From: an uncultured Gammaproteobacteria bacterium | GTDB lineage: Bacteria > Patescibacteriota > Patescibacteriia > Magasanikbacterales > GWA2-37-8 | DNA: 64,000 bases | Direction: 5' to 3' | Assembly: GCA_964407865.1 (NCBI GenBank) | Contig: CAYOXC010000003.1 | Coordinates: forward strand, 12,760 to 76,759 | In this document: positions 10,204 to 62,614 of the stretch, one piece after another | How the letters are laid out: every line of letters starts with the position of its first letter | Position numbering within the stretch: the stretch's first letter is position 1 | Translations under genes and position numbers: made by a program | Notes under the pieces: generated by a model | The model's input: only the letters and a program-made list of their open reading frames with translations | Told to the model about the DNA's origin: nothing | The model's database searches: none

Positions 10204-10208
10204 TATTA

Positions 10209-37490: not shown

Positions 37491-38150
37491 ATGGCGGAAG
37501 AGCAACCGCGTATTACTCACGAACAGAAGATCGGATTGATTTTGCTGTCAGCTTTTATTTTGTTAGCCGTCACTTTGGGTTTGATTCAAATGCGCAATAC
37601 CATATACAAGCCGTTTGCTCTGAATAAATCCATTCCGCCCATGATAGGTGAGCAGGTGAATACGCCTGAAGCTTTGCGCTACCGCGACACTGATTATGAT
37701 GGTTTGAATGATTTTGATGAATTATATGTTTATACTACCAGCCCATATTTAGCAGATTCTGATTCAGACGGCATTAGCGACAAAGACGAAATAGAGGGCG
37801 GCAAAAACCCAAATTGTCCCGAGGGCAAAAATTGCGGTGTCACCATTGTCACTGAAGGTTCGGCCATGCCTCAAACTCCGAATCAGCCGGAATTGTTTAA
37901 TTATTCTTTCCCAGAAGATCTTGAGGGTTTATTTCAAGAACCGGAGATAATCAGAGCCATGCTTCTGGAATCTGGTTTAAGCCTGGATGTGGTTAGTAAA
38001 ATTTCTGATGAAGATTTAAAATCAATGGCGGCGGAGATATTTACTTCAAGTACTTTGATGCAGGGTATTAGTAGTGCCACAACCACCTCAAATGTGACCA
38101 GCACGATTCAATTTATAAATGAATTAATGACCGAGGAGCCAGTAGAGTAA
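37491..38150 (+). CDS. Hypothetical secreted/membrane-anchored protein with Asp-rich calcium-binding-like (thrombospondin type-3-like DxDxDG) motifs
   Basis: 219 aa; N-terminal TM; YRDTDYDGLNDFDE and DSDSDGISDKDE. Confidence 0.4.
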   Translation: MAEEQPRITHEQKIGLILLSAFILLAVTLGLIQMRNTIYKPFALNKSIPPMIGEQVNTPEALRYRDTDYDGLNDFDELYVYTTSPYLADSDSDGISDKDEIEGGKNPNCPEGKNCGVTIVTEGSAMPQTPNQPELFNYSFPEDLEGLFQEPEIIRAMLLESGLSLDVVSKISDEDLKSMAAEIFTSSTLMQGISSATTTSNVTSTIQFINELMTEEPVE

Positions 38151-38157: not shown

Positions 38158-41100
38158 ATGCTTGGAAAATCAAAAAAATTTGGTTTAGGATTTATTGCAG
38201 CAGTAGTTGTTTTTGTCTCTCTGTTTGGGGCGGTTTTTTTAGCACCTCAGAAAGCGCAAGCCCAGATGGCTGTTTACGTTGTTCAAAACCCGTATGAAGA
38301 TACTAGATCTATAATTGAAAAAATCAAAGACGAAGGCCTCCTCATGGTTATGTCAGCCATTATGAATGGCCTGAATTATTTTACCAATAAAATCGCCTAT
38401 GACATGGGTGTTTGGCTGGCTTCTGGCGATTGGGGGCAGGGCCCATTTGCTTCTGGCGAGAGTTTTGGCAATTATCTGGCGCAAACAGCCGGCGATTCTT
38501 TGGGTGAAGCACTCGGTTCTTTAAGCGAAAGCTTAGGCCTAAACCTCTGCGATTTGCCGGATATTCGCTTGGATTTATTGCTTCAGCTCGGTTTTCATTT
38601 TAATTATGGCCCTCCCACGCCAAAGTGTTCTTTTCAGCAGTTAAAGGCCGCTTATAATGTGGACAACATCCGTTCGCAGTATGCTTCTGTTCAAGGATTG
38701 ACCAGTCGAGTTAGTTTGGGTGTACAGGTTTCAGATTCGGATTTAGGTGTTTGGTTAAAATCAAAAGAAACCATTGATACCATGGCTTGGGAACAGCAAA
38801 CAGGCGCCTCGCTTGATCGCCAGGAAGGCGATGGAATATTTCCAATGTCAGAAATTATTTCGGGAAAGACCACTGTTCCGGCCACTGTAATGAGAGATGA
38901 GTGGAATGCTAAGTCAGCGGCAGCGGAAAAAAAAGGCAGGGACGCGGATAAAACCGCCATGCTTGGCGCGGCCTTGCAAAAAGGCGGAGTTTCACTTGCT
39001 TTAAATACTGTTTCAACATTTGTAAATACTTTACTTGGTACAGTTTTGAACAATTTTCTTACCGAAGGTCTTTTGCCAGGCGGAGCAAAAGTATGTAACC
39101 CGGGCTTAAGCATCAGTGGAGTTGGTTGGGATCAGTGCGATGAGTCAGATACGGCAGAATATCTTGCCGGCAGCTACTATGGTGCCGGCAGTACTGGCGG
39201 ACAGAGGCGAGCGGCCCAGGAGCTTTTTAGCGAATATCTTGTGCCTAAAATTAAAACAGTGGATAACTATAATATTTTAGGCACCATGGCCGATTGTTCT
39301 CCTGACAATCTTTTGCCCGAGGCTTGTACTATCGATCAGTCATTTTTGCAGATTTTACAGGAGGGCGATCAATCGGGTGAACCATTGACGATAAAACAGG
39401 CATTAGAGAAGGGTTATTTACATGCTGATTGGCGATTGATTCCAGAAAGCGATGCTGCCAATAACGAAAGTCAGGATTGCGCCTTAAAAGCATATTGTCA
39501 ACGTAATATTAAATTTTTGAGGTTAATGCGTATTTTACCGCTTGGTTTTGAAATAGCAGCAAGTGAATCGCCTGCGGACAATCCATGGACTTTAGGGGAT
39601 GTGGTTGATGCTTTTTACGATTCTGGTTCGGGGCATAGCAGTTCGAAGAGAGGTTTGATAAATCCATATTGGGTTATAAAATATCCAAAAACCAGATGCG
39701 GCAATTTAGCATATAGTCAAACCGCCATGAGTGGGATGCATTTACAGAGTTGCGTGGATATCCAGCATTGCGTCGCTTACAACAAAGACGGATCTTGTGC
39801 CGCTTGGGGATATTGTTTGCGCGAACAGCCGCTTTGGAAAATCAGTGCAAATTATTGCGACAAACAATATGCCACCTGTCGCAGTTTTGTTAGCGGAGAT
39901 GGCGACACTGGCTCATATTTACTTCGCACTTTGCAGGCCGAGGACTGCAATGCTGACAATGACGGTTGTACTCGCTATTCAAAATATAAATATTATTTAA
40001 CAGAATCAATTCAGGATTGGTTTGCCCTGGGTACTTATCAAGCAATTACAAACGGTCATATTTTTTATAATAATAGCCTATATTTTAATAAGAAATTACC
40101 CACTTGCGATGTCTCACAAGCTGGTTGCAACGCTTTTAAATTGGCAAGCGACCAAAATACAACAGTATTTTTGAAAAAAGCGCCGGATTATTTGGGTTGT
40201 TATGATGCAGATAGCAATGAAGATTCGGACAAACTGATGCTGTTGGTCAAAAAAATCCGTGATGGCATTAGCTGGCCAACAACTTTATCAGATTTAAATT
40301 TGATCAATCCACAGGATCCGGAAGCCTGCAATAATTACGCCCAGGTTTGTTTGCCAGAAGAAGAAAATTGCAATTATTACACCTCAGCTTTAACGGGCGA
40401 CACCGTGCCGGGCAAGTTTACCCCAGCCGTGGTTGAGGGTGGCCAAGTTACTTGGAATGATCAGTGCGACGCCAAATGCGTCGGTTATGCCGCTTACAGA
40501 GAAATGCCTTCAAATTATACCAACGGGCAAAGCATAGCTTACATTATTCCTTCATCAGGAAAGAGTTGTTCTGCCTCTGAGGCTGGTTGTAGCTCGTTTA
40601 CAAATTTATCTACTGAGCAGGGAGGGTTAGAAAATAACGAATATTTTTCATATTTGCGTCTTTGTGCTCTGCCCGATCAAAACATACAGCGAAATTACAC
40701 AGTTTATGAAAGTTCCGAATCAGGCGGATACCAAATAAAAACTTATACACTGGTTAAAAACAACAGCAATGAAGGTCCGAAACAGATTTTCCGTGACCAG
40801 CAGGAATACAATAAATTTTCCGCTTTGTGTAATTCAACCGTATATGCTAATGGTACGGCCGATCCAGATTGCCACCAGTTTATAGATGGAAACGGTGGAG
40901 TGCATTATGCCCTTTTATCAAAAACCATTGTCGTTAGTGATCAATGCACTCCGTATCGTTTGAACAACACCGAATTAGTACCTTACGGAACGCAACTCCG
41001 ATGTCCGTTTGATTTTGACAACAGCGCCAGTGACAAAAGGACCGGTACTTATACGGTTGAGTTTAAGAATAACTCCTGCTATTACATGGGCTTTACCGGT

Positions 41101-44100
41101 AATACAGGCGGAGCGGGCGATAGTATTTCCTGTACCAGTGATGTTGAGACTTGTCAGGCATATAAAGGCAATGCCGGTTATAATGTCCGTACATTATATA
41201 GCGAAAATTTTGAAGGCGGTGAACTTGAGGGTTGGAATGATGTAAGTTCGAATGTGGATACCAGTCTTTCAGCTGAATCAACTCAAATTGACGGCCATTC
41301 AATGAAAATAGCGGCAACGGATATTTCTTATAGTTCGGTTGGTGTTTATAACGAAGAGCCTTTGCTCATGCTTCAAGGTAAACAGTATATGGTTTCTTTC
41401 TGGGCGAAAGGCACTTTAGATATTTCTGAAATCGGTTTTATGTCTGGTGAAACAAATTATCCACTGGAAGATACACAGGTTCAGCCAACGGGTGTATGGC
41501 GTAATTATTCATTTGGACCATTTGATTATGAAGATATTTTTGCGGGCGGCCCAGCAAGTGATGAAATGGCTACGACTTATTTAAATTTTAAACTTGGTCA
41601 GGCAGGGGCTACAACAGATAATTTGTTTATCGACAATCTAAAAGTAACAGAAGTCGCCGATTATCTTTATCTGGTAAAAAATTCTTTATCCGTCGATCCA
41701 ATCTGCGACAGTTCCCCCAACGACAATTTGCCGGGCGAGGCTCTTGGTTGTATGGCCTACAAAACGCCGGCTGGCACAACATTTAATCTGGTTAATTTTA
41801 GCTATCTTTGCCGCGAAGCTGCTGTCGGTTGTACTGCGGTTTTAGACACCTACAACACTCCAGATGATCCGGATTATCGGGTTCACAATATCTGGCTTAA
41901 AGGCACTTCTGGAAATTTAGCTACTGTCACCGTAGAAGAAAAAACTTATTCTTGTCAGGTACCGGTTGGTGAAGCTGGCTGTTATGTTAATATGACTGGT
42001 ATAAAAAGCATGCATAGCCTGGAATTGCCAACAAAATTAGAATTTAAAAATTCTACCGTGGTTATCCATGCTGACACGCCAACTTCTTCACCAATATATC
42101 TGGTAGCAAACAAAGGTTCAAGTTGTAAGGCGGAAAATATGGGTTGCGAATTGGTTGGAAGATCAACACCGAGCATGTCTGGCTTGTCATACTACGCCGA
42201 TATTGGTTTGGGCACAGATTTACAACACCATTATGAAACATTTGATGAGGTGGCGATAAAGAACGATCCGGCATTGTATAGCTCAACTTTGTGCCAGGCA
42301 GAAGCCGTAGGTTGTAAAACCTGGTCTTCAGGTGAAAGCGCTTATTATTTTAAAGATCCAAAGAAGATCGGCAATCTGGTCTGTGAATACAAGGAAGAGT
42401 TTTATCCTCCTCAGCTTGATGTAATAACTGTTTGGAATCCATTATTGGGAATTGATGTTCCAGTTGTCCTTGGTTTAGAAGGTTCAGCCCAGCCGTTTTC
42501 CGGTTGGGCCTGGAAAGATGTTGGTACATGTTCTGTCGGTGATACCACTTATCCTATGGGCAAATATTGCAATTCAGATGCTGACTGCTCGGTTGCGGAT
42601 TCAGATATTACTGGAAAATGTTTATTTAAAGGCGCCATTCCTTGTTATCCAAACATAAAAGACAACGCACACACCCCTCCTGAATACCAAATTATCTCAT
42701 ACGGAACGACCAATCTGTATAAAGGTTATGCCGGAGAGTGTCCGGCCGAGCAGTCAGGCTGTTCACAGTTTGTAGATCACAGCTCTTCGCTAGGAGAAAA
42801 TAAAAAGTGTCTGATAACCGGGAAAAAATGTGATTTTGATAGTGATTGCAATGAAGCAGAAAATGACAAATGTGCGGCAAATTATATGAGCGCTTATTAT
42901 TTGATTGAAAACCAAAAACTCGATGTTTTGCAGGCGGCTTGCAATGGTAAAGTTAGTCAAGCCGAAGGCTGTGTCCTTTTGGATAAAACCTCCAATCCAA
43001 ACAAATACTGGAATGCGGCTGAAAGCTATAGCGCTTCTGTTGCAGACAATGAAGGCATGGTTACCCCTGTATCAAATACATCCAATGATTCCAACATCAT
43101 TATGAAAGTCGTCCATGACCGTGAGTGCGCCGAATGGGCTTATTGTGATTTGAAACAAACCTTTGAAAATGAAGATACCGGCGAAGAAGAAGAGCGCTGT
43201 TACCATCTCGGAGCGTGCGACAAAGCCGGTATTACACAACCAATGGCCGGTGTGGCGCCGAAAGAATGTGGTCATCCTTTGACTGATTGGGACATGAAAA
43301 ATAAGGAATTAACGATTAGTCAGTACCGTTCTTTTATTGGGAGTTGGGATTCAAAAGATTTTTCCGGTTATTCAATGTATAGCACTTTCCAGGTGCCGGA
43401 TCTTACAGTTAGATATTTTGGATCAGACGATATACCGCGCTTAGTCAACGTTAATGAAATGTATAGTTTTTATTCTCCCTGTTCAGTTAGTGATAAATGC
43501 GCCCAAGGAAACACCGGCGCTTCTTGCGGTCCTTCCGGTTATACAGGTACATGCATAAACGGAGAGTGTATGAGCGCTTTGTGGAACGGCAACCCTGAAT
43601 CATCAAGAAAATTGGCTTGCCGAGCATACGCTGAACAGGATGCCCCGTTTGATGATCATGTTTTATCAAGTGGAGATGAAAATGTTGAAGTTTATAAAGA
43701 AGGTTATGAAGGGGTAAATCTATGTTATTCAGAAGGTGGTAATCCGGTAAGTTGTGACGCTTATATGAATGGAGGCACAACGGTTCAATGTCAGTATCGA
43801 AAAATAAAAACTTCCGGAGGCATAGTTTACAAACAGACTGATGAAGTGTTGGAAGGAAATTTTATTTGTAGCGACGGGGTCAATAAAGGCAATTATTGTG
43901 ATGATTTAGAAGACTCAGGTACAGATTGCGCCGGTGGCAGTTGTTCACAAATACAGAGTATTCAGGTGAATCAAAATATGATGGGCTATTGCATAGACTG
44001 GGACAAACGCCATCGCATAAACGGCACGGCTGAAACTGCTTGTATGGCTTGGTGGCCGATTGATACACCTCCTGGTACACCTATTTTTTGGGAAACCGAT

Positions 44101-46512
44101 GAAAACGCCGGTTATGAGGTGGGCGAAAAAAAGGACCGCTTTATATGTTTGGAAAATATTCCGCTTATTAAAAAAAATCACCCGAATGTTGCATTTGGTG
44201 TTGGGACTGGAAATGCGAACGATTTTCCCGCAACTTTACCAAATGACATGTATTTTAAGAGGGCAGATCCGTGGGTGCCATCATCAATAAGAGATTTACT
44301 TGATACCCCTGTTTATGTGCGGAATATTCCAACAAACGCTATTCTGATCGGCTGCAATCATCGTAATGAACTTGATAATTGGGATATGCTTTATTACAAT
44401 GATATCGAAGCTTCTGAAGGATGGTATTGCCCGATAAATACTCGTAATACGTATGTAGATGATGTTTCCCAGGCTTATTGCGACGGCGGTAATGAGGACG
44501 GGTGCAAAAATAATGAGGATTGGTGGTGGAACGGCAATAACAATCGGTGGTTAAATGACTCCAACACAACATATATCCACATGAATGAAATTGAACGTAT
44601 AGATGTAGTGATAGATAAAGATACCGGTAACAACAATGCGCCAGTAAGCGGAGGAACAGTGAGTTTTATACGCGATATTGTCGATGCTGATGAGGAAAGA
44701 TCTTTTACTTTGCTGGAATCAACTTGGATGTCAAAGAAGGACGGTGTCGGGACTACATATTATACATCAAAATCGGATTTGGAAAATTTATGTGGAGATG
44801 GCGAGGATTGGTTGGCTTGGACGTGGGAAGCCAGGCTGGCTGGTCACCCGGGCAATTGGCTTACACAGTGGCTGGAAGACGAAAGTACAGTCGATGGAAA
44901 GTTGGCTATTGCCAAAGAAGGTATTTGCTTGGATGAATATAAAAATGTTTCCCATGATTTTGACGACGGTAAAAGAATTGTCGGTGTTCGAGTTGTTTTC
45001 GATGATCAGAATTATTTTAGAGGCATTTGGATAAATGGCGAAGATGATGACGCCTCTGGCGCTATTGACCTGGGGTTTTTCTTCGTCATCCATTTTACTC
45101 ATGGAAAGTGCAATAAATTTGCCCAAGTTTCGACAAGCGATAGCTCAAATAAATTTGCCTTCAAACCATACACTAATAACATGAAAACCGGAAGGACCTC
45201 GGTAGACGAAGAATGGTATGATAGTTCGAGAATCTATCGTACTGGTCGAACTCCTGATATAAACGGCGGGGGGTGGGGTTTAGCCATGAATGAGGCAGGA
45301 TCATATATAAATCCGTCAAGTAAAAATGTTACTTTTGTTAATCCCTTTACAGCCTATCCCGGTGGCTGGGATTTTACATTTTCTCAGAGTGGAAGCTTAG
45401 AAAGTAATTACGATATTACCGGATATAATGCTGGCATTCCGCTTCTTACAACTTATATTAAAGCACACGGATTAACCTCTGACGCACCAGACTATATACT
45501 TGTTGATCAGTCATATTTTGAATATGGTTCTCCAAGTGATTTTAATAATAAACCATACGGCGATTTGCTAGAAAATATGTATGCTAAAAATTATAATTTT
45601 TGGCGTATGACTCAAGATTCTGGTCACGCATCTGGTTATGAGTCGTATCATTCACCAGACGACGCGGCTAATCCAACTTTGGCGCAAGCCCTTGGCCGAT
45701 CTGTTTATCCTCCGATGATTGCCGCGCCGACAGATAGTGGTAGTTGGGAAGAGGGTGCCATATCGATGAAAAATCAAACTTCCGGAAATATATATCTTTT
45801 ATCGGGCTCGCAAGTAACAATGAAATTTTACGCCTGGGCGCATAATCATCAGATGCCTCTTCGCAGAGTAATCGCCGATAAAGGCGATGGTTTGACAGTT
45901 GATACCGGCATGAACGACTCACTGGGTAATAGAAAATACAAATGCACCAGCAGTGGTATTTGTGGTGATGACAACTACTCAACTCAATTTCCATGTACTG
46001 GTAATTCAGATTGCTCGCCGGTTGATCCGGGGTATTGGGGGACTGGACTTGGTTCCAATTCATGTGACACATCAGATATTACCGACTCTATGAGTTTTGG
46101 CAACACCGACGATACCGGTTGCAAAGCAGAGCCGTGGGAGTTCACTATGGATTATATTTGTCCGGGTGGAGCTGGCGGGATGGAAATTGTTGATAATCCC
46201 GGTGACGACCCATATACTCCTGTTCCTTATGGTATTGATTGGGATTATATAGAAAGTGAATGGCATGAAGTGCCGTATGTTTGTGTCGCTCAGCCCAGAG
46301 CATATGCTCTAGACAACTGGGGCTGGTGCGCTAGTCGGCCGACTCCCGGCGGTTGCGGTTCGGAAAATTTATACATAGACGGGTATGGTTGTTATGGGGA
46401 TACAGTCACCAATCTGTGTGACCCAGGAAGCGGTAAGCCATGGGTTCATTATGGTGGTAAGGTGATTGTAATACCGCTTTTAGGCGATACGCCCGATACT
46501 TGTTTACCTTAA
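38158..46512 (+). CDS. Giant (2784-aa) Cys-rich secreted surface protein with a CBM4/9-like carbohydrate-binding / concanavalin-like module
   Basis: N-terminal signal/TM. There are hundreds of Cys in spaced patterns. The segment ENFEGGELEGWNDVSS...MVSFWAKG...NLFIDNLKV resembles CBM_4_9 jelly-roll modules. Confidence 0.6.
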   Translation: MLGKSKKFGLGFIAAVVVFVSLFGAVFLAPQKAQAQMAVYVVQNPYEDTRSIIEKIKDEGLLMVMSAIMNGLNYFTNKIAYDMGVWLASGDWGQGPFASGESFGNYLAQTAGDSLGEALGSLSESLGLNLCDLPDIRLDLLLQLGFHFNYGPPTPKCSFQQLKAAYNVDNIRSQYASVQGLTSRVSLGVQVSDSDLGVWLKSKETIDTMAWEQQTGASLDRQEGDGIFPMSEIISGKTTVPATVMRDEWNAKSAAAEKKGRDADKTAMLGAALQKGGVSLALNTVSTFVNTLLGTVLNNFLTEGLLPGGAKVCNPGLSISGVGWDQCDESDTAEYLAGSYYGAGSTGGQRRAAQELFSEYLVPKIKTVDNYNILGTMADCSPDNLLPEACTIDQSFLQILQEGDQSGEPLTIKQALEKGYLHADWRLIPESDAANNESQDCALKAYCQRNIKFLRLMRILPLGFEIAASESPADNPWTLGDVVDAFYDSGSGHSSSKRGLINPYWVIKYPKTRCGNLAYSQTAMSGMHLQSCVDIQHCVAYNKDGSCAAWGYCLREQPLWKISANYCDKQYATCRSFVSGDGDTGSYLLRTLQAEDCNADNDGCTRYSKYKYYLTESIQDWFALGTYQAITNGHIFYNNSLYFNKKLPTCDVSQAGCNAFKLASDQNTTVFLKKAPDYLGCYDADSNEDSDKLMLLVKKIRDGISWPTTLSDLNLINPQDPEACNNYAQVCLPEEENCNYYTSALTGDTVPGKFTPAVVEGGQVTWNDQCDAKCVGYAAYREMPSNYTNGQSIAYIIPSSGKSCSASEAGCSSFTNLSTEQGGLENNEYFSYLRLCALPDQNIQRNYTVYESSESGGYQIKTYTLVKNNSNEGPKQIFRDQQEYNKFSALCNSTVYANGTADPDCHQFIDGNGGVHYALLSKTIVVSDQCTPYRLNNTELVPYGTQLRCPFDFDNSASDKRTGTYTVEFKNNSCYYMGFTGNTGGAGDSISCTSDVETCQAYKGNAGYNVRTLYSENFEGGELEGWNDVSSNVDTSLSAESTQIDGHSMKIAATDISYSSVGVYNEEPLLMLQGKQYMVSFWAKGTLDISEIGFMSGETNYPLEDTQVQPTGVWRNYSFGPFDYEDIFAGGPASDEMATTYLNFKLGQAGATTDNLFIDNLKVTEVADYLYLVKNSLSVDPICDSSPNDNLPGEALGCMAYKTPAGTTFNLVNFSYLCREAAVGCTAVLDTYNTPDDPDYRVHNIWLKGTSGNLATVTVEEKTYSCQVPVGEAGCYVNMTGIKSMHSLELPTKLEFKNSTVVIHADTPTSSPIYLVANKGSSCKAENMGCELVGRSTPSMSGLSYYADIGLGTDLQHHYETFDEVAIKNDPALYSSTLCQAEAVGCKTWSSGESAYYFKDPKKIGNLVCEYKEEFYPPQLDVITVWNPLLGIDVPVVLGLEGSAQPFSGWAWKDVGTCSVGDTTYPMGKYCNSDADCSVADSDITGKCLFKGAIPCYPNIKDNAHTPPEYQIISYGTTNLYKGYAGECPAEQSGCSQFVDHSSSLGENKKCLITGKKCDFDSDCNEAENDKCAANYMSAYYLIENQKLDVLQAACNGKVSQAEGCVLLDKTSNPNKYWNAAESYSASVADNEGMVTPVSNTSNDSNIIMKVVHDRECAEWAYCDLKQTFENEDTGEEEERCYHLGACDKAGITQPMAGVAPKECGHPLTDWDMKNKELTISQYRSFIGSWDSKDFSGYSMYSTFQVPDLTVRYFGSDDIPRLVNVNEMYSFYSPCSVSDKCAQGNTGASCGPSGYTGTCINGECMSALWNGNPESSRKLACRAYAEQDAPFDDHVLSSGDENVEVYKEGYEGVNLCYSEGGNPVSCDAYMNGGTTVQCQYRKIKTSGGIVYKQTDEVLEGNFICSDGVNKGNYCDDLEDSGTDCAGGSCSQIQSIQVNQNMMGYCIDWDKRHRINGTAETACMAWWPIDTPPGTPIFWETDENAGYEVGEKKDRFICLENIPLIKKNHPNVAFGVGTGNANDFPATLPNDMYFKRADPWVPSSIRDLLDTPVYVRNIPTNAILIGCNHRNELDNWDMLYYNDIEASEGWYCPINTRNTYVDDVSQAYCDGGNEDGCKNNEDWWWNGNNNRWLNDSNTTYIHMNEIERIDVVIDKDTGNNNAPVSGGTVSFIRDIVDADEERSFTLLESTWMSKKDGVGTTYYTSKSDLENLCGDGEDWLAWTWEARLAGHPGNWLTQWLEDESTVDGKLAIAKEGICLDEYKNVSHDFDDGKRIVGVRVVFDDQNYFRGIWINGEDDDASGAIDLGFFFVIHFTHGKCNKFAQVSTSDSSNKFAFKPYTNNMKTGRTSVDEEWYDSSRIYRTGRTPDINGGGWGLAMNEAGSYINPSSKNVTFVNPFTAYPGGWDFTFSQSGSLESNYDITGYNAGIPLLTTYIKAHGLTSDAPDYILVDQSYFEYGSPSDFNNKPYGDLLENMYAKNYNFWRMTQDSGHASGYESYHSPDDAANPTLAQALGRSVYPPMIAAPTDSGSWEEGAISMKNQTSGNIYLLSGSQVTMKFYAWAHNHQMPLRRVIADKGDGLTVDTGMNDSLGNRKYKCTSSGICGDDNYSTQFPCTGNSDCSPVDPGYWGTGLGSNSCDTSDITDSMSFGNTDDTGCKAEPWEFTMDYICPGGAGGMEIVDNPGDDPYTPVPYGIDWDYIESEWHEVPYVCVAQPRAYALDNWGWCASRPTPGGCGSENLYIDGYGCYGDTVTNLCDPGSGKPWVHYGGKVIVIPLLGDTPDTCLP

Positions 46513-46522
46513 AAATTACAAA

Positions 46523-46590
46523 ATCCTCAGCCTTGGGCTGAGGATTTTAAAAAATAAAAAACCCGCGCTGAATTTGCGCGGGCAGTTGGA
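46523..46590. terminator. Convergent terminator pair between the giant gene and the minus-strand lipoprotein gene
   Basis: cctcagccttgggctgagg + atttt (terminates the plus-strand gene) and aaaaaacccgcgctgaatttgcgcggg (terminates the minus-strand gene). Confidence 0.6.
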
Positions 46591-46637
46591 GCGGGGTGCT
46601 CCATAGGCAGTGTGTTGGTAGAGGACGGGGAGGCGGG

Positions 46638-47198
46638 CTATCGTATGTAGGTAAAGACCTCGAAATCATCGGGTGCCGATGAATATACTTTTTTTAAAAA
46701 AAGGTTGACCCCATCTGAGTAGATGGTTAATACTATACCCGTGTCTTCGTCAATGTACTCGAGAGGAAGAGAATTACCTTCCATTGTTGCCGTGAACGCG
46801 GCTCCATCGCCACTGGGTGTAGAAGAGCAAATGTCTCCTGTAACACTGGTGACGTTCATTGTATTGCTGTCGGTAATCCTGGTCCATTCGCCTTGAATGT
46901 CGAAGCAGTACTCGCCCTCTTCTGGGTCGGCGTCCGTGTCCGGGCCGTCTCCGCTCTTCAGGCACTCGCAGTAGTCCTCGGTGTCGGTGTCCGTGTCGCT
47001 ATCGCTGTCGGAATCCGTGTCCGAGTCAGTATCGCCGTCGGTGTCGCTGTCGCTGTCGGCATCGCTGTCCGCGTCCGTGTCGCCGTCGCTGTCGCAGTCG
47101 TCGCCGATGCAGTCGTCGTCGCCCTCGTCGCACGCAGCGAGAGAGAACATGAGAACGGTGAACAGAGCCACGAGCACGATATTCATTTCTTTCTTCAT
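46638..47198 (-). CDS. GC-rich lipoprotein-like secreted protein with (D-S/T)n repeats
   Basis: 186 aa; signal peptide ending LAAC (lipobox-like); long [28 protein letters not shown] repeat; markedly higher GC than the neighbours; paralogous to 60336..60989. Confidence 0.5.
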   Translation of the reverse strand: MKKEMNIVLVALFTVLMFSLAACDEGDDDCIGDDCDSDGDTDADSDADSDSDTDGDTDSDTDSDSDSDTDTDTEDYCECLKSGDGPDTDADPEEGEYCFDIQGEWTRITDSNTMNVTSVTGDICSSTPSGDGAAFTATMEGNSLPLEYIDEDTGIVLTIYSDGVNLFLKKVYSSAPDDFEVFTYIR

Positions 47199-47274
47199 CT
47201 TTCATTCTCCTTTTTTTCTCCGCGCTCGGCGCGGTATCGTTTTGTGGTTGTGCCCTTTCGGGCGTACCCTGGAT

Positions 47275-47417
47275 AGCCCAGAGTTTTGGATGTATTGGTC
47301 TCATTTCCTCTTTCGGCTTAGCCGGTAAATATGTTCTGTAGGAAATGTTTTCAAGTTTCTTTTAACAAGCTCTGTCAGAATTGCTCGATTTCATCCGAAT
47401 ATATCCAAAACTCTGGG
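47275..47417. repeat. 20-nt inverted repeat pair in the GC-shifted noncoding region upstream of the radical-SAM gene
   Basis: tagcccagagttttggatgtat (47275..47296) vs atatccaaaactctgggcta (47398..47417), enclosing ~100 nt. Confidence 0.5.
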
Positions 47418-47734
47418 CTACACTGTTATATCCCCGTTAAATACTCGCTTCGCGAGCCTCGTCACATGGACGAATTTAACAGGGTAAACCTGCCTTTAAG
47501 CTGTTTTTCGCTATTCCGCGAAATTCAGCACTTTGTAATGAACTACTCATATTTTAGGCCAATATTAGGCACTAAACAAGTCATTATAGCACAATTTGAC
47601 CCTTTTGTCAAGGGGTGTTTGCAGCGAATGTGAGTGTATGAGATTGTTCCTTTTAGGATGATGAATTGACATTTCAGCGCTTAAGTGCGTACCATACATA
47701 TAGTTAGCATTCTTTGACAATTCGGAGGTGATCA

Positions 47735-48772
47735 ATGCCAAATTTAATACAAGGCGCTTGGCTGACAGTGAATCGGAAATGTAATTTGCGGTGTCGTTGG
47801 TGTTATGCTGAAGCGCCGGCTGACAAACATGAAGAAGACATGACTTTTGGTTTGGCTGAATCCCTGGTTGGTTTTTTGGCCCGCCTGGGTGTGGGCCAAG
47901 TTATTGTTCTTGGCGGTGAGCCGTTGTTGTGGCAATATTTATCTGACTTGTCTCAAGTGGCCGAAGTGAATAATCTCAAAACAGTTCTAGTGACGAACGG
48001 AATAATGTTTAGCAGATTGCCAGTTGTTGAAATGGTAAAAAGAAGTAAATTTCACGCCATTGATCTGTCTGTTAAGGCAGATAGCGATGCCGCTTATAAA
48101 GAGATAACCGGCGTTAAAGCTTATTCGCGTTTGGTGCGGGGAATGCGAAATTTATCGCGCGAGAATGTTGATTTTACTGCGTCAATAACAGTCAACAGGT
48201 TGAACGCGCATTGTATTGCAGAAATGGTAAAAATGGCAGTAGAAAACGGGGCTCGACGAGTTACTCTTCAATTTTGCGCTGCGACGATGGATGATTTTCG
48301 TTTTTCTAGCAAATACATGCTCGAGCCATTTGTGGCAGCTCAAAGCGTAGTTGAGGCGTATAATAAATTAAGACCAGCTATCAAGAAAAAAGTTGTCATT
48401 GAGCAGTCGTTACCTTTTTGCGTCTGGCCGAAGGATTTTCTCGAACATTTGAAAGAATCCGGCAGTATTTTTTCCGGTTGCCATGTTTTTAAACGCAATG
48501 GGCTTATATTCAGTACGCGAGGGGATGTATTGCCATGTAATTGCCTACATGAAATTATACTGGGAAGATATGGAAACGAGTTTGACGATCCGGCAAGCTT
48601 TGAAAGCTTTTGGCTTGACGCTCAGGTAGTTGAATTCTATAATAAATTAATCAGCTACCCATCGCGTAGGTGTATGGATTGTGAGGATTATATGGAATGC
48701 GGCGGCGGCTGCCCTTTACAATGGTTTGTGTTTAGACCGCGGGATGTCATAGCCCGCAGAAAGAAGAGGTGA
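47735..48772 (+). CDS. Radical SAM enzyme with a C-terminal SPASM domain (peptide-modifying maturase type)
   Basis: 345 aa; CNLRCRWC (Cx3Cx2C) at residues 16-23; C-terminal CMDCEDYMECGGGCP (Cx2Cx5Cx3C SPASM signature); GGAGGTGA RBS 5 nt before the ATG. Confidence 0.8.
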   Translation: MPNLIQGAWLTVNRKCNLRCRWCYAEAPADKHEEDMTFGLAESLVGFLARLGVGQVIVLGGEPLLWQYLSDLSQVAEVNNLKTVLVTNGIMFSRLPVVEMVKRSKFHAIDLSVKADSDAAYKEITGVKAYSRLVRGMRNLSRENVDFTASITVNRLNAHCIAEMVKMAVENGARRVTLQFCAATMDDFRFSSKYMLEPFVAAQSVVEAYNKLRPAIKKKVVIEQSLPFCVWPKDFLEHLKESGSIFSGCHVFKRNGLIFSTRGDVLPCNCLHEIILGRYGNEFDDPASFESFWLDAQVVEFYNKLISYPSRRCMDCEDYMECGGGCPLQWFVFRPRDVIARRKKR

Positions 48773-48987: not shown

Positions 48988-49488
48988 ATGCGGGCAGGAG
49001 CCATAATTTTTAATATGTCTATTTCATTAAATTTTCGTGCAAACAATTCAGATGAAGAGCGCAAGATGATTCAGTTCATTTCCGGTAAAAAAAAGTGGTT
49101 TGATAAGAACGGTTATAAATACATTCTTCCTTCAGAGAAGAGGGGGTTACATTACGATAAGAAAAAATATCAAATAATCATTAGTAAAATAAAAAATAAC
49201 TGGCTATCTCGCGACGGGTCGATTTTTTTGAAAAAGGTTTCGGTTTTTTTCAATATTAATTACAGGAAAAAAATCTTAGTTAATATAACCATGTATGGCA
49301 CCGGCGGCATGTATGATGTAAATTCGGGCAGTATTTTTATTAATCCAAAATTAGGGTATGATTCAATAAGTGTAATAAAGCACGAAATTATCCATTTGTT
49401 TCTGGAAAAATACGTAAGACAATTCGCAGTCAGTCACGAAAAAAAGGAAAAAATGGTGCAAAGCATATTCTTGCTTCTTGGGAGCTGA
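48988..49488 (+). CDS. Hypothetical protein with an HExxH motif (HEIIH); true start probably at an internal Met
   Basis: 166-aa ORF; low GC unlike the adjacent island; HEIIHLF near the C-terminus. Confidence 0.3.
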   Translation: MRAGAIIFNMSISLNFRANNSDEERKMIQFISGKKKWFDKNGYKYILPSEKRGLHYDKKKYQIIISKIKNNWLSRDGSIFLKKVSVFFNINYRKKILVNITMYGTGGMYDVNSGSIFINPKLGYDSISVIKHEIIHLFLEKYVRQFAVSHEKKEKMVQSIFLLLGS

Positions 49489-55415: not shown

Positions 55416-55853
55416 ATGCCCGTTCAGACGCAATTCGTTGTACCACAATTTATTGATGTTGAAGATAAAATATTTGGCCCAATTACGGCTCGCCAGTTTG
55501 TCATACTTTTGGTTGCCGGCCTGCTTTTATTCCTTGCCTATAAATTGGCAGATTTTGGACTTTTTGTTTTTCTTTTAGTTACCCTTGGCGGCGGGTCGCT
55601 GATTGTTGCCTTTGTAAAAATTAACGGTCAGCCATTTCATTATTTTCTATTAAATATTGCTCAAACTTTGCGTCGTCCACCTCTCAGAATTTGGAACAAA
55701 GTCTATTCAAAAGACGAACTTAAACGGCTGCAGGAAGAGGGAAGAGTGGTCGTTCCAGAACCGCCTAAAAAAATAAAAAGGGCGTCTTATAGTCGAATCC
55801 GTGATTTATCATTAACCGTCAATACCGGAGGCTATTATGAAGCCGAGGAGTGA
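55416..55853 (+). CDS. Small two-TM membrane protein, VirB3/PrgI-like (T4SS)
   Basis: 145 aa; two hydrophobic helices; it sits upstream of the VirB4 genes, as PrgI/VirB3 does in T4SS loci. Confidence 0.35.
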   Translation: MPVQTQFVVPQFIDVEDKIFGPITARQFVILLVAGLLLFLAYKLADFGLFVFLLVTLGGGSLIVAFVKINGQPFHYFLLNIAQTLRRPPLRIWNKVYSKDELKRLQEEGRVVVPEPPKKIKRASYSRIRDLSLTVNTGGYYEAEE

Positions 55854-56157: not shown

Positions 56158-56176
56158 TATACTGGGTATGAAAAAT
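55852..56176. repeat. Paired inverted arms (family copy 4), this time flanking the GIY-YIG gene; the downstream arm covers the RBS and start of the VirB4 N-domain gene
   Basis: gatatacccagtaatacagcttccagtgtgtcc (55852..55884) and ggctctggaagctgatatactgggtatgaaaaat (56143..56176). The arms share the locus-specific variants CAGCTTCCAG/CTGGAAGCTG and CCCAGTA/TACTGGG. Confidence 0.7.
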
Positions 56177-56854: not shown

Positions 56855-56857
56855 TTT

Positions 56858-60175: not shown

Positions 60176-60275
60176 ACCGGGTTGACCGCGTATAATCGCT
60201 TTGCGATCACGCGGTCAACCGCGTAGGTCATAAGCCTTATACGCGGTTGACAAAATGGCTAAAATATGCTATATT
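60176..60275 (+). promoter_or_regulatory. Second copy of the rnpB promoter module: palindromes plus -35 TTGACA (60247..60252), a 17-nt spacer and -10 TATATT (60270..60275)
   Basis: ggttgaccgcgtataatcgctttgcgatcacgcggtcaaccgcgtaggtcataagccttatacgcggttgacaaaatggctaaaatatgctatatt is ~85% identical to 10104..10203. The similarity extends to gttcatta just downstream of the -10. Confidence 0.6.
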
Positions 60276-60335
60276 CTTTCGTTGGATAAGTTCATTAAAA
60301 ACACCAAAAAACCCGAAAGGGAAGGAGAGTAAAAA

Positions 60336-60989
<654 letters not shown>

Positions 60990-61007: not shown

Positions 61008-61035
61008 TTCAAACATTGCCCCGACATCACGTCGG
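61008..61035 (+). terminator. Intrinsic terminator after the D/T-repeat gene
   Basis: ccccgacatcacgtcgggg + ttttttt. Confidence 0.65.
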
Positions 61036-61042
61036 GGTTTTT

Positions 61043-62614
61043 TTATATTTTTTTCCAGATTCGACAGATTTGATCTTCGTACACCAAAATCCATTCATTG
61101 CTTCGCGTTAGCATTTTTTCAAGCTGAGATTCTTCTTCCATGTGAATTAAAGAAAGATCGCGATTTGAAAAAATAATCCTATTAACAACATTCGGTTTGG
61201 GATAAGAAGATATATTGCGGTTTATAATTGCATAATTTGCTTGTGTGGAATTGAGCTCTCTTAAACCGTTAATTTCAAATTTCATTTGTCTATATTTTTT
61301 TAGGAGATTCATACCCTCATTATTGTTCCAGGTGACTGTACCGCGGCCATCGAGATAAACAAGCGCTTCCGGCAAGCTCCAGTTAAGATAGCCACCCCAG
61401 CGGAATTCGTTAAATAGAAAAATGTTATTTCTTAATCCTTCCTGCTTCAGAAACAGTGTTGCTTGATAAGGATAAGGCCGGTGGGCAAGGTATTTAGGGT
61501 CTGTCCAAATATCACTTGAGACATAAATACTGCTTGCGTTAAATGCAATTATGATCAGCCCAAAGGCAATATATATACAGAGGCGTATTATTTTTAAATT
61601 AACCTTATTCAATTTCAGAAGCGACATAATTTTTGCTTCAGCTTCGGTCAGTGCGATGGATATTATTGGCAAACTAAAAAAAACGAGATATAGATTGTTC
61701 CTTTTATAACTCCAGGCCGCATAAAAGAAAGCGGCAAAAAGCAAAAGCTCGGCAAGAGAAAGCCGTTTATTTTTATATCCGATGACGGCAAACACCGCGG
61801 CCACAGAACCGATAATTAGCGGTAGAAGATAAACTGGATATGCATAGCTCGGTATCCATTCGTTAATAATTGTTTTAAAATATGTCCCCTGGGATATATA
61901 AGCGGCAATTTCGCCGTATATTTTTAGACCATAGGGGTTAGCTAAAACGGCGATCGCGGAAATGACTAGCCAGATAGCAATTGTGAAAAATGTTTTTGCA
62001 GACCAGTTTGTCTCTTTTCCAGAAAATAGCGGGAAGTAGCGTTTTAAGATAATAGCGAACAGATTGCCACCGATATATATGAATGTAATAATGAATCCTA
62101 TAAACCAACTGCCGTGTAGGATTGACCAAAGCCAGAAGATAAAAGGCCATAAATATAATAAATTTTTTTGCGGCAACACCTTAAGGGTGTAGATAAGCGG
62201 GGGTATAAGTGCAAGTACCACAAAAGCCGGTCTGACAGCAAAAATGAAGTCAAGGGACCAGACGCAGAAAATTGCAAGTAAAATTGAAAGTGGAGATAAT
62301 TTATTAGTAAATATTTTTACTATCCATAAAAAAGCCAGCCAAATAATAACAGCTATGGTTATGGATAAAGCAAAGTAGCCAAGGTCGGCGTAAATTAACC
62401 AGAAAAAAAGGTCACTGCCCCATTCGTGGTTTGTCCAGGGCTCGCCAAAATTTGTCCAGGTGTAGCTATCCGTGTATTGAAATTGCCCAGCAAAAGCATC
62501 CATGCCAAAGCGAAGATGCCAGCCAAGGTCAGCATCAATTATATTAGCGACAAGATGAAGTGTTAGAACAAACCCAGCTGTAATAAGTATGATTTTTGTG
62601 ATTTTTTCAAGCAT
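61043..62614 (-). CDS. Polytopic membrane protein (~14 TM), possibly a GT-C-type glycosyltransferase (ArnT/PMT-like or DUF2079-like)
   Basis: 523 aa; hydrophobic throughout with short loops; only a low-specificity resemblance. Confidence 0.3.
   Translation of the reverse strand: MLEKITKIILITAGFVLTLHLVANIIDADLGWHLRFGMDAFAGQFQYTDSYTWTNFGEPWTNHEWGSDLFFWLIYADLGYFALSITIAVIIWLAFLWIVKIFTNKLSPLSILLAIFCVWSLDFIFAVRPAFVVLALIPPLIYTLKVLPQKNLLYLWPFIFWLWSILHGSWFIGFIITFIYIGGNLFAIILKRYFPLFSGKETNWSAKTFFTIAIWLVISAIAVLANPYGLKIYGEIAAYISQGTYFKTIINEWIPSYAYPVYLLPLIIGSVAAVFAVIGYKNKRLSLAELLLFAAFFYAAWSYKRNNLYLVFFSLPIISIALTEAEAKIMSLLKLNKVNLKIIRLCIYIAFGLIIIAFNASSIYVSSDIWTDPKYLAHRPYPYQATLFLKQEGLRNNIFLFNEFRWGGYLNWSLPEALVYLDGRGTVTWNNNEGMNLLKKYRQMKFEINGLRELNSTQANYAIINRNISSYPKPNVVNRIIFSNRDLSLIHMEEESQLEKMLTRSNEWILVYEDQICRIWKKI

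What the first reader, a model, noticed from the sequence alone, without database searches (positions are those of the whole stretch)
46638..47198. Two paralogous GC-rich (D-S/T)n repeat lipoprotein-like genes with skewed composition
The genes at 46638-47198 (minus) and 60336-60989 (plus) both encode signal-peptide/lipobox proteins dominated by [11 protein letters not shown]-type repeats built from GAC/ACC/AGC hexanucleotide tandems. Both have conspicuously higher GC than the flanking genes and strong intrinsic terminators. Antisense frames of both yield long spurious ORFs, which is a repeat artefact. Such acidic repeats are plausible Ca2+-binding or cell-surface spacer regions, and the tandem hexamers are prone to expansion and contraction.
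Basis: seen in the sequence. Interest (0 to 1): 0.5.

Follow-up and report, generated by a model that had tools for sequence, protein, structure and literature searches.

The report
Two GC-rich acidic-tether lipoprotein genes
Two small, unrelated surface-lipoprotein genes in an AT-rich, probably Patescibacteria (CPR) genome share only a long, very negative Asp-Ser/Thr spacer and stand out as GC-rich, probably foreign DNA; one belongs to a small unnamed cysteine-rich family and the other is an orphan, so this is real but fairly ordinary.

Summary
Both ORFs are real: g1 is 46638-47198 (-), 186 aa; g2 is 60336-60989 (+), 217 aa. Each has a ribosome-binding site, a signal peptide with a lipobox Cys, a D-[S/T/G/A] tract (52 and 88 aa) and an intrinsic terminator.

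They are the strongest compositional outliers in the window. GC3 is 0.67 and 0.72, against 0.34±0.05 for 43 other genes (z = 6.5 and 7.4).

"Paralogous" is not supported. Outside the low-complexity tract the two proteins show no similarity.

g2 belongs to a small unnamed family with four homologues, one from a Candidatus Magasanikbacteria MAG. Members share the same architecture and a C-terminal domain with 12 invariant Cys under purifying selection (dN/dS 0.09-0.24). They are GC3-rich in every host and sit next to tRNA-Leu in the two long contigs.

g1's C-terminal domain has no credible relative among 1.84 billion representative proteins.

Slippage is evident only in g2, which has an exact 42-nt tandem duplication. 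g1's tract is codon-scrambled and identical in three samples.

The same lipobox, D[ST] tether and small head layout recurs in hundreds of metagenomic proteins. The best reading is membrane-anchored surface proteins held out on a polyanionic spacer, acquired horizontally. Interest is modest.

The parts
46638..47198 (-). g1 coding sequence, 186 aa, an orphan lipoprotein-like gene
   Evidence: ORF. The identical protein was called in NCBI and Logan assemblies (P0001). GC 0.538, GC3 0.668.
47130..47198 (-). g1 signal peptide with lipobox (aa 1-23, ...FSLAAC)
   Evidence: Matches the PROSITE-type lipobox pattern with K2 and K3 in the n-region.
46974..47129 (-). g1 acidic D-[S/T/G/A] tract (aa 24-75). 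It holds 28 D/E and no K/R, and is flanked by Cys30/Cys35 and Cys77/Cys79.
   Evidence: GC3 is 0.90. The longest exact internal DNA repeat is only 11 nt.
46641..46973 (-). g1 C-terminal domain (aa 76-186), predicted all-beta, with no credible homologue
47207..47211 (-). g1 ribosome-binding site AGGAG, 8 nt before the ATG
   Evidence: Read directly from the sequence.
46551..46583 (-). g1 intrinsic terminator (GCCCGCGC-loop-GCGCGGGT followed by a T-run)
47583..47611 (-). Candidate g1 promoter (TTGACA-17-TATAAT with TG, 12/12 matches), about 385 nt upstream of the ATG
   Evidence: No terminator was predicted on this strand between it and g1.
47199..47578 (-). Structured 5' leader or intergenic RNA upstream of g1. 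It includes a 23-nt inverted repeat at 47274-47296 / 47398-47420.
   Evidence: MFE is -124.5 kcal/mol, z = -7.1 against shuffles. Inverted repeat. No Rfam match.
60336..60989 (+). g2 coding sequence, 217 aa, a member of a small unnamed lipoprotein family
   Evidence: ORF. Homologues are P0009, P0010, P0011 and P0014. tblastn gives 45% and 40% identity over the C-terminal domain.
60336..60377 (+). g2 signal peptide with lipobox (aa 1-14, ...AAISC). Its composition is host-like (GC3 0.36 over aa 1-25).
   Evidence: Family members carry L[GA]C at Cys16.
60411..60674 (+). g2 acidic D-[S/T/G/A] tract (aa 26-113), with 38 D/E and no K/R
60468..60551 (+). Exact 42-nt tandem duplication ([14 protein letters not shown] x2) inside the g2 tract
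   Evidence: Logan short-read contigs break at 60497 and 60620-60623.
60675..60986 (+). g2 C-terminal Cys-rich domain (aa 114-217), with 12 invariant Cys and the motifs CWD, YWSP and PACCLKNxGE
   Evidence: Alignments A1 and A5. dN/dS is 0.09-0.24 in relatives. No Pfam, NCBIfam or PDB match. GC3 is 0.79.
60177..60277 (+). g2 upstream module. It contains the promoter TTGACA-17-TATATT (60247-60275) and inverted TACGCGGTTGAC copies, and is a duplicate of the module upstream of the RNase P RNA gene (10105-10205).
   Evidence: The two modules have 88% column identity. RNase P RNA lies at 10209-10599.
60324..60327 (+). g2 ribosome-binding site (AAGGAGAG, core GGAG), 8 nt before the ATG
   Evidence: Read directly from the sequence.
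61018..61048 (+). g2 intrinsic terminator (GCCCCGAC-loop-GTCGGGGT followed by a T-run)

Best explanation
g1 and g2 are two evolutionarily unrelated small secreted proteins built to the same plan.

**Architecture.** A Sec/lipoprotein signal peptide ends in a lipobox Cys, which would be lipid-modified and anchor the protein in the cytoplasmic membrane. A long, lysine/arginine-free D-[S/T] tract follows (52 and 88 residues). The mature proteins carry net charges of -45 and -62. Each ends in a small globular 'head' of about 105-110 aa.

**Proposed mechanism (inferred).** The tract is a disordered, self-repelling polyanionic tether. It holds the head away from the membrane, through or above the wall or S-layer. 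This is the job proposed for the Ser-Asp repeat region of staphylococcal Clf/Sdr adhesins, but here the tether is attached to an N-terminal lipid anchor. The heads carry the specific function, probably ligand or partner-cell binding. g2's head is a disulfide-rich 12-Cys domain conserved in a small Patescibacteria family. g1's head is an orphan all-beta domain, possibly a small barrel.

**Origin.** Both genes are foreign to the local composition.
- g2 was probably acquired from another Patescibacterium. Its only homologues are there, and in both long contigs recovered (L008, L010) they sit in a GC-rich two-lipoprotein cassette directly downstream of tRNA-Leu(UAG). In this genome g2 is expressed from a duplicated copy of the RNase P RNA promoter module.
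- g1's donor is unknown.

**Tract dynamics.** Tract length changes by duplication or slippage in g2 and its family. g1's tract is codon-scrambled and stable.

**Shown:** gene reality, architecture, composition, lack of paralogy, family membership of g2, and purifying selection.
**Inferred:** lipidation, tether function, surface display and horizontal transfer.
For: **Gene signals.** Ribosome-binding sites, promoters and terminators are present. Both proteins match the lipobox pattern and are the only two lipobox candidates among 46 window ORFs.

**Tether.** The tracts have 28/52 and 38/88 D+E and no K/R. Both proteins have pI 4.05, while the window proteome has a median pI of 8.5, so this is not a halophile-wide trait. 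NCBIfam matches fall only on the SD-repeat region of ClfA/ClfB/SdrC/SdrD. That SDR region lies between the anchor and the ligand domain and has been proposed to span the wall (PMC3794999).

**Recurring architecture.** Among the 120 best D[ST]-tract hits, 77 have a lipobox-like Cys and 109 start the tract within 60 aa. The median is 161 aa after the tract, and the heads are diverse, including DUF1566 and FGE-sulfatase.

**g2 family.** Alignment A1 shows 12 invariant Cys. dN/dS is 0.09 and 0.24. Family members evolve faster than housekeeping neighbours: 48% identity against 83-86%.

**Foreign composition.** GC3 z-scores are 6.5 and 7.4. Codon choice is opposite to the host's, including in the non-repetitive g2 head: TAC 5/5, GAG 7/8, TGC 9/12, ATC 4/5. 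Ribosomal and other host genes are not GC3-rich. A D[ST]-tract lipoprotein in another 40%-GC Patescibacteria MAG uses host-like codons (GC3 0.38), so the tract itself does not force high GC3.

**Family context.** Homologues are GC3-rich in all four contigs. In the two long contigs they lie directly downstream of tRNA-Leu(UAG).

**Assembly check.** The junctions of both genes with host DNA are reproduced at 100% identity in independent Logan assemblies of three runs. HGT within Patescibacteria is reported as common (PMC12455944).
Against: - Lipidation was not tested. lgt and lspA could not be looked for because the genome is not in the searchable collections. g2's Cys is at position 14, just outside the usual positional rule.
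- No donor was identified for either gene, and no flanking direct repeats or integrase were found.
- In the g2 family, synonymous sites are saturated (dS > 1) yet GC3 stays high in hosts of 40-50% GC. Simple 'recent transfer then amelioration' does not fully explain this.
- g1's last 56 codons are host-like, so g1 may be a mosaic.
- Cys30/Cys35 and Cys77/Cys79 bracket g1's tract. They could close it into a loop rather than leaving it as an extended tether.
- Both head-domain structure models are low confidence (pLDDT 47 and 49).
- The g2 tract copy number rests on one assembly.
Confidence: 0.6

Rival explanations
1. The two genes are recent paralogues, produced by duplication within this genome, whose non-repeat parts have diverged.
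For: They share the same overall layout, the same type of tract, and both are GC-rich with strong terminators.
Against: BLASTP gives a best E of 1.0, and phmmer/blastp of the head domains find no cross-match. The longest shared DNA word is 14 nt, and Ser/Thr codon preferences differ between the tracts. g2's signal peptide and head align with a family to which g1 does not belong. g1 is also unrelated to the partner lipoprotein of that family. The same layout is found with dozens of unrelated heads.
Confidence: 0.05
2. The GC excess is a by-product of the repeats, not of foreign origin. A GC-rich seed unit (GAC-ACC/AGC) was amplified by slippage, and amino-acid composition does the rest.
For: The tracts are the GC maxima (GC3 0.90 in g1, 0.73 in g2). 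g2 contains an exact 42-nt duplication and a (GACACC)n run. In g1 the GC3 excess fades towards the 3' end.
Against: g2's non-repetitive head has the highest GC3 of that gene (0.79), with non-host codon choices. g1's signal peptide, 5' UTR and 3' UTR are also GC-enriched. g1's tract has no exact repeats longer than 11 nt, so it is not a recent amplification. A comparable tract in another 40%-GC Patescibacteria genome has host-like GC3 of 0.38.
Confidence: 0.15
3. The tract is mainly a functional polyanion: a divalent-cation (Ca2+/Mg2+) binding or buffering element, or a mineral or partner-surface binding element. It may be O-glycosylated on Ser/Thr. On this view it is not a passive spacer.
For: The Asp density is extreme, with alternating hydroxyl residues. 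Staphylococcal SD repeats are known substrates of dedicated glycosyltransferases (PMC3794999). Glycosyltransferase genes exist elsewhere in the window at 3044-6438 (ORFs, not analysed further). The whole mature proteins, heads included, are acidic.
Against: There is no match to the Ca-binding thrombospondin type 3 model. A true TSP3-like motif does occur in a neighbouring host-composition protein. No glycosyltransferase is adjacent to either gene. Tract length and sequence vary freely among family members, which is typical of linkers. This rival is compatible with the spacer model rather than exclusive of it.
Confidence: 0.2
4. One or both ORFs are not genuine genes. They could be chance ORFs in GC-rich repetitive DNA, or a chimeric assembly joining DNA of a GC-rich organism to the AT-rich contig.
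For: GC-rich repeats create long ORFs in several frames. g1 has no homologue, so its coding status cannot be tested by conservation. g2's exact protein is absent from the protein collection. Short-read contigs break inside the g2 tract.
Against: Independent assemblies from three runs reproduce both junctions of g1, and both outer junctions of g2, at 100% identity. Each chosen frame alone combines a ribosome-binding site, signal peptide, lipobox and terminator. The g2 frame is conserved in four homologues with dN/dS well below 1. g1's 111 non-repetitive codons are open only in this frame.
Confidence: 0.04

Closest known systems
Ser-Asp repeat (SDR, 'R region') of staphylococcal MSCRAMM adhesins ClfA/ClfB/SdrC/SdrD
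   Same: Both are long dipeptide-type Asp/hydroxy-amino-acid tracts placed between the cell anchor and the functional domain. The NCBIfam models of these proteins hit only through their SD region (E 1e-5 to 2e-13). The SDR region has been proposed to span the wall and display the ligand domain (PMC3794999).
   Different: The anchor here is an N-terminal lipobox, not a C-terminal LPXTG, and neither protein has an LPXTG motif. The tract is D-T/D-S/D-G/D-A mixed rather than pure SD. The heads are about 105 aa and unrelated to the Ig-like A domains. Scores are far below the family cut-offs (23-49 bits against 999-2500). No SdgA/SdgB-like gene is adjacent.
Unnamed lipobox-D[ST] tract-head proteins of metagenomic Myxococcota/'Deltaproteobacteria', Chloroflexi and Patescibacteria (for example P0021, P0069, P0043)
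   Same: The order of parts is the same: signal peptide with lipobox, about 17 aa, a D[ST] tract of about 70 aa, then a head of 100-240 aa.
   Different: The heads differ (DUF1566/Lcl-like, FGE-sulfatase, others). Only the tract matches, so this is a shared module or a convergent solution, not a protein family. In P0043 the gene has host-like codon usage.
g2 homologues P0009, P0010 (MAG annotated Candidatus Magasanikbacteria, GCA_026396515.1), P0011 and P0014
   Same: Homology is full-length: lipobox, tract, and a head with 12 invariant Cys and the motifs CWD, YWSP and PACCLKNxGE. All are GC3-rich relative to their hosts.
   Different: Where enough flank was recovered, the homologues are followed by a second small lipoprotein (all four contigs) and preceded by tRNA-Leu(UAG) (L008, L010). 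g2 is solitary, lies between comF-like and membrane-protein genes, and has a different promoter and 5'UTR. g2 also has the longest tract and a shorter signal peptide.
Thrombospondin type 3 (TSP3) calcium-binding repeats (Pfam PF02412)
   Same: Both are Asp-rich, with occasional DxDxDG strings (DSDTDGDTD).
   Different: No Pfam hit at E <= 1 for either protein. The DxDxDGxxDxxD spacing is not kept. A genuine TSP3-like motif (DTDYDGLNDFDE, DSDSDGISDKDE) sits instead in the unrelated 219-aa protein at 37491-38150.
Bacterial lipocalin/calycin-type lipoproteins (for g1's head only)

Membership tests
Bacterial lipoproteins (Lgt/LspA substrates) | N-terminal signal peptide with a basic n-region, a hydrophobic h-region and a lipobox [LVI..][AST..][GAS]C (PROSITE PS51257-type pattern) | tested here: met
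   The pattern matches in g1 (Cys23), g2 (Cys14) and all four g2 homologues (Cys16), and K/R is present within the first 7 residues.
Bacterial lipoproteins (Lgt/LspA substrates) | Lipobox Cys located at positions 15-35 | tested here: inconclusive
   g1 meets it with Cys23. g2's Cys14 is one residue short. The homologues have Cys16.
Bacterial lipoproteins (Lgt/LspA substrates) | Genome encodes Lgt and LspA, and the protein is lipid-modified | not testable with these tools
   The source genome was not found in genome contigs or metagenome contigs. Only 64 kb is available.
Staphylococcal SDR/MSCRAMM adhesins (Clf/Sdr) | Whole-protein match to the family models above their cut-offs | tested here: not met
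   Scores are 23-49 bits against cut-offs of 999-2500, and the hits are confined to the SD-repeat part of the models.
Staphylococcal SDR/MSCRAMM adhesins (Clf/Sdr) | C-terminal LPXTG sortase signal and an N-terminal Ig-like ligand-binding A domain | tested here: not met
   Neither sequence contains an LPXTG motif, and the anchor is N-terminal (translations). No Pfam domain was found.
Thrombospondin type 3 Ca-binding repeats (PF02412) | Match to the TSP_3 profile (DxDxDGxxDxxD) | tested here: not met
   No TSP_3 hit at E <= 1 for either protein.
g2-type 12-Cys lipoprotein family (unnamed, defined here by alignments A1 and A5) | Lipobox, D[ST] tract and a C-terminal domain with 12 conserved Cys and the CWD / YWSP / PACCLKNxGE motifs | tested here: met
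   g2 aligns end to end with P0009, P0010, P0011 and P0014, and all 12 Cys are invariant. tblastn gives E 1.7e-20 and 1.5e-13. g1 does not match.
g2-type 12-Cys lipoprotein family (unnamed) | Genomic context: downstream of tRNA-Leu(UAG) and followed by a second small lipoprotein | tested here: not met
   The tRNA context is seen in L008 and L010, and a partner gene in all four contigs. The window has no partner homologue, and g2 lies between comF-like and membrane-protein genes.
Lipocalin/calycin fold (g1 head) | Eight-stranded antiparallel barrel supported by a profile hit or a confident structure | tested here: inconclusive
Substrates of radical SAM/SPASM peptide maturases (ranthipeptide-like Cys-Asp thioethers) | Adjacent dedicated maturase of a defined family, a leader recognised by an RRE domain, and CX3D/E motifs | tested here: inconclusive
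   A generic rSAM/SPASM gene is divergently adjacent at 47735-48772. Its best NCBIfam scores are far below every cut-off, and PapB scores 55 bits against 340. g1 has two CX3D strings (C23DEGD, C30IGDD), but these are expected by chance in a roughly 50% Asp stretch. g1 has a secretion signal, not a RiPP leader. The PapB chemistry is taken from PMC9413430.

The most novel reading that the evidence does not exclude
g1 may be a protein substrate of the divergently adjacent radical SAM/SPASM enzyme (47735-48772). The enzyme would install Cys-to-Asp (ranthionine-type) thioether cross-links in the Cys/Asp-rich segment that follows the lipobox (C23DEGDDDC30IGDDC35DSD...), before export. The product would be a lipid-anchored, RiPP-like cross-linked surface protein. 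The long structured leader upstream of g1 would regulate the pair. Nothing here excludes this reading. It rests only on adjacency and on motifs that are expected by chance in an Asp-rich sequence.
Probability: 0.04. Interest if true: 0.7.

Novelty: new member of a known kind. Interest (0 to 1): 0.3.

Why it matters
Patescibacteria (CPR) are thought to live attached to other cells, so their surface proteins are the likely contact points, and most of these proteins are unannotated.

This case supplies three things:
- A clean, checkable example of a recurring but unnamed building plan: lipid anchor, polyanionic D[ST] tether, small head.
- A small new disulfide-rich head family that could be modelled and expressed.
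- Evidence that such genes behave as compositionally foreign, fast-evolving cassettes in otherwise streamlined genomes.

It also gives two annotation warnings. The tracts spawn long false ORFs and break short-read assemblies. Shared low-complexity tracts should not be read as paralogy.

None of this overturns current understanding.

Tried and rejected
**Homologue searches for the two heads**
- The word-indexed search with g2's head alone found nothing. With g1's head it found only self.
- The exhaustive phmmer search of g1's head against 1.84 billion representatives returned only repetitive beta-rich proteins. Their scores are sums of roughly 10-bit repeats, and one is a translated DNA repeat array. 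I rejected these as homologues.
- Genome contigs and metagenome-contig scans with the g2 head, g1 head and the radical SAM neighbour were all empty. The source organism's name and close relatives could not be obtained.
- Exact look-ups of eight window proteins returned no names and only singleton clusters.

**Apparent length variant**
- P0002 (223 aa) looked like a repeat-length variant. It is the same DNA with the TAG stop read through by a gene caller.

**Structure**
- Single-sequence AF2 models of both heads have low confidence.
- Foldseek against PDB with the g2 model gave nothing with E < 1.5.
- The afdb50 library was unavailable.

**Profile and collection searches**
- Pfam, NCBIfam and PDB-sequence searches with proteins and family alignments gave no family.
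- Phage, plasmid and IMG/VR searches gave no match.

**Other tests**
- g1 against the partner lipoprotein of the g2 cassette showed no relation.
- No direct repeats or target-site duplications flank either gene.
- Translational selection as the cause of high GC3 was rejected, because ribosomal and other host genes are not GC3-rich and GAG/CCC/CTC are also enriched.
- A halophile-type acidic proteome was rejected (median pI 8.5).
- A literature search for the SRA runs found nothing.
Full report
**What is there**

The window has 39.9% GC. It carries typical bacterial housekeeping genes:
- a bacterial class A RNase P RNA and three tRNAs;
- a UvrA-length ORF and T4SS-like genes, identified from ORFs and Pfam marks.

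Its proteins are all singletons at 90% identity. Together with the affiliation of the g2 homologues (see "g2 belongs to a small family"), I infer a Patescibacteria/CPR MAG. This is an inference.

Their gene signals are:

| Feature | g1 | g2 |
|---|---|---|
| Ribosome-binding site | AGGAG, 8 nt before the ATG | GGAG, 8 nt before the ATG |
| Lipobox | FTVLMFSLAAC, Cys23 | [11 protein letters not shown], Cys14 (one short of the usual 15-35 rule) |
| Terminator | GC hairpin plus T-run | GC hairpin plus T-run |
| Promoter | 12/12 consensus, about 385 nt upstream | TTGACA-17-TATATT with TG, 60 nt upstream |

**The tracts**

- g1 aa 24-75 and g2 aa 26-113 are D-[S/T/G/A] tracts with 28/52 and 38/88 acidic residues and no Lys or Arg.
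- They are the only such tracts in any frame of the 64 kb.
- Tandem Repeats Finder reports periods 6/12/48 and 6/12/18/42.
- At the DNA level the two differ. g2 holds an exact 42/43-nt tandem duplication (60468 and 60510) and a (GACACC)n run. g1's longest exact internal repeat is 11 nt, so its tract is periodic in protein but scrambled in codons.
- The mature proteins have net charges of -45 and -62 and pI 4.05. They are the two most acidic of 46 ORFs, in a proteome with a median pI of 8.5.

**Composition**

Forty-three other genes have GC 0.391±0.037 and GC3 0.341±0.051, with a maximum GC3 of 0.437.

| Gene | GC | GC3 | GC3 z-score |
|---|---|---|---|
| g1 | 0.538 | 0.668 | 6.5 |
| g2 | 0.595 | 0.716 | 7.4 |

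The excess is not confined to the tracts:
- g2's non-repetitive head has GC3 0.79 and codon choices opposite to the host's: TAC 5/5, GAG 7/8, TGC 9/12, ATC 4/5. The host prefers TAT, GAA, TGT and ATT.
- g1's signal peptide and UTRs are GC-enriched, while its last 56 codons are host-like.
- In g2 the composition steps up at about 60400, after a host-like promoter, ribosome-binding site and signal peptide.

**Not paralogues**

- BLASTP of g1 against g2 gives nothing (best E = 1.0).
- The two heads match only themselves among all window ORFs.
- The longest shared DNA word is 14 nt.

**g2 belongs to a small family**

Searching with g2's head alone failed. Searching with the whole protein used the tract words to collect candidates, and four full-length homologues surfaced: P0009, P0010, P0011 and P0014. 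P0010 comes from a MAG annotated as Candidatus Magasanikbacteria, GCA_026396515.1.

The family has these properties:
- All members have a lipobox (L[GA]C-GVQ), a D[ST] tract of variable length, and a head with 12 invariant Cys and the motifs CWD, YWSP and PACCLKNxGE.
- tblastn gives 45% and 40% identity to g2's head.
- For the two closest pairs, dN/dS over the head is 0.09 and 0.24 with dS > 1. The frame is therefore coding and constrained.
- The family still evolves much faster than its neighbours: 48% identity against 83-86% for PNPase and others between L008 and L010.
- In L008 and L010 the gene lies directly downstream of tRNA-Leu(UAG), behind a conserved promoter and 5'UTR.
- In all four contigs it is followed by a second small lipoprotein with a short acidic linker.
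- The cassette is GC3-rich in every host: 0.58-0.80 against about 0.40-0.50.
- No Pfam, NCBIfam, PDB, phage, plasmid or IMG/VR relative exists.

In the window g2 differs from its relatives in three ways:
- It is solitary, with no partner homologue.
- It sits at a different locus.
- It lies behind a roughly 100-nt upstream module that is 88% identical to the one upstream of the RNase P RNA gene.

**g1 is an orphan**

- An exhaustive phmmer search of its head against 1.84 billion representatives returns itself plus repetitive beta-rich proteins. Their E-values are sums of many roughly 10-bit repeat matches, so they are not credible homologues.
- The g1 locus, tract included, is 100% identical in Logan assemblies of three runs. 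No length polymorphism is seen.
- For g2 the short-read contigs stop at 60497 and 60620-60623, that is, at the exact repeats. Its copy number is therefore unverified.

**How it most likely works**

The same order of parts recurs in the 120 best tract hits:
- 77 have a lipobox-like Cys.
- 109 start the tract within 60 residues.
- The median is 161 residues after the tract.
- The heads are as different as DUF1566 and FGE-sulfatase.
- Many come from MAGs labelled Myxococcota or Deltaproteobacteria, and some from Patescibacteria.

The only curated models that touch g1 and g2 are staphylococcal Clf/Sdr adhesins, and only through their Ser-Asp repeat. That region sits between the wall anchor and the ligand domain. 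It has been proposed to span the wall, and it is glycosylated by SdgA/SdgB (PMC3794999).

By analogy I propose that the tract is a disordered, self-repelling tether between an N-terminal lipid anchor and a small binding head. This is inferred, not shown. Cation binding or O-glycosylation of the tract is compatible with this and untested. The TSP3 calcium-binding model does not match.

**Origin**

A control argues that the tract does not force GC-rich codons. P0043, a D[ST]-tract lipoprotein in another 40%-GC Patescibacteria contig, has GC3 0.38, like its neighbours. Host ribosomal genes are not GC3-rich, so translational selection is unlikely.

Horizontal acquisition is therefore the best explanation. 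For g2 the most likely source is another Patescibacterium, because the only homologues are there. This agrees with reports that most transfers into Patescibacteria come from other Patescibacteria (PMC12455944).

Caveats:
- No donor was identified.
- No insertion scars were found.
- High GC3 persists across a family whose synonymous sites are saturated. Simple amelioration does not explain this, and I leave it open.

**Surroundings of g1**

- g1 is convergent with a 2784-aa Cys-rich giant protein.
- It is divergent from a generic radical SAM/SPASM gene.
- Its best promoter lies about 385 nt upstream, and the intervening 380 nt fold unusually well (z = -7.1). They include a 23-nt inverted repeat and have no Rfam match.

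PapB-type SPASM enzymes link Cys to Asp in CX3D motifs (PMC9413430), and g1 has two such strings after its lipobox. In a stretch that is about half Asp this is expected by chance, and g1 carries a secretion signal rather than a RiPP leader. I keep this only as the low-probability novel reading.

**Verdict**

- The paralogy claim fails.
- The spacer idea is reasonable.
- Slippage applies to g2 only.
- These are new members (one small new family, one orphan) of a widespread but unnamed kind of tethered surface lipoprotein, and they are probably horizontally acquired.
- Interest is modest.

Noticed in passing
window 10105-10205 and 60177-60277: A roughly 100-nt upstream module occurs twice, before the RNase P RNA gene and before g2, at 88% identity. 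It reads GGGTTGACyGCGTAyAAT...CACGCGGTCAAyCGCGTAGG...TACGCGrTTGACAAAA...TGCTATATT. It contains inverted copies of TACGCGrTTGAC and a near-consensus extended -10 promoter. Its function is unknown; it could be a strong promoter cassette or an operator.
   Followed up: partly
window 15191-15212 (-), 24442-24463 (+), 28536-28557 (-), 56141-56162 (+): A conserved motif, TTGTCTCTGGAAGYTGATATGC(N)GRTATGAAY, runs straight into the start codon of four unrelated genes. There are 4 matches against 0 expected by chance. It creates false 'LSLEVDMLGMN' N-terminal extensions in ORF lists. It may be a promoter or leaderless-start signal, or a 5' RNA motif.
   Followed up: partly
window 47199-47578 (-): The 380 nt between a 12/12 consensus promoter and g1's start fold at -124.5 kcal/mol (z = -7.1). 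They contain a 23-nt inverted repeat (47274-47296 / 47398-47420) and a compact three-way junction around 47440-47495. There is no Rfam match. This could be an unknown cis-regulatory leader, an sRNA or a MITE-like remnant. No relatives are available to test covariation.
   Followed up: partly
window 47735-48772 (+): A radical SAM/SPASM protein of no defined subfamily lies divergently adjacent to g1. Its best hits are NirJ2, GeoRSP, PqqE, mycofactocin, PapB and anSME, all far below their cut-offs. A weak SprT-like metallopeptidase ORF follows at 48988-49488.
   Followed up: partly
window 37491-38150 (+) and 38158-46512 (+): A 219-aa membrane-anchored protein carries genuine thrombospondin-type-3-like motifs (DTDYDGLNDFDE, DSDSDGISDKDE). 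It lies directly upstream of a 2784-aa Cys-rich giant protein with an N-terminal signal or TM segment. Both are acidic (pI 4.1-4.5) and host-like in composition, and they may form a surface apparatus.
   Followed up: no
window 23262-23335 (-): A tRNA-Ile with anticodon UAU. Many bacteria decode AUA instead with a lysidine-modified CAU tRNA (from general knowledge, not tested here).
   Followed up: no
window 55416-58726 (+): A T4SS-like gene set (PrgI-like, TraC-like, VirB4/DUF87 ATPase) with a small GIY-YIG ORF wedged in at 55837-56157. Two 23S-rRNA-IVP-family genes are nearby.
   Followed up: no
L010 1201-2569: In the roughly 50%-GC contig carrying the g2 homologue P0014, two pyrimidine-biosynthesis-like genes (Pribosyltran, OMPdecase) have GC3 of 0.84-0.88. 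This is another strongly foreign-looking islet in a Patescibacteria-like contig.
   Followed up: no
L003 888-1559 (= window 46527-47198 region): One automatic annotation (P0002, 223 aa) read g1's TAG stop as a sense codon and extended the protein through the terminator. It is a gene-caller or genetic-code artefact, not a variant.
   Followed up: yes
window 46520-46548: A perfect 13-bp palindromic hairpin (AAAATCCTCAGCC-AAG-GGCTGAGGATTTT) lies between the convergent giant gene and g1. It could act as a bidirectional terminator alongside g1's own GC hairpin.
   Followed up: no
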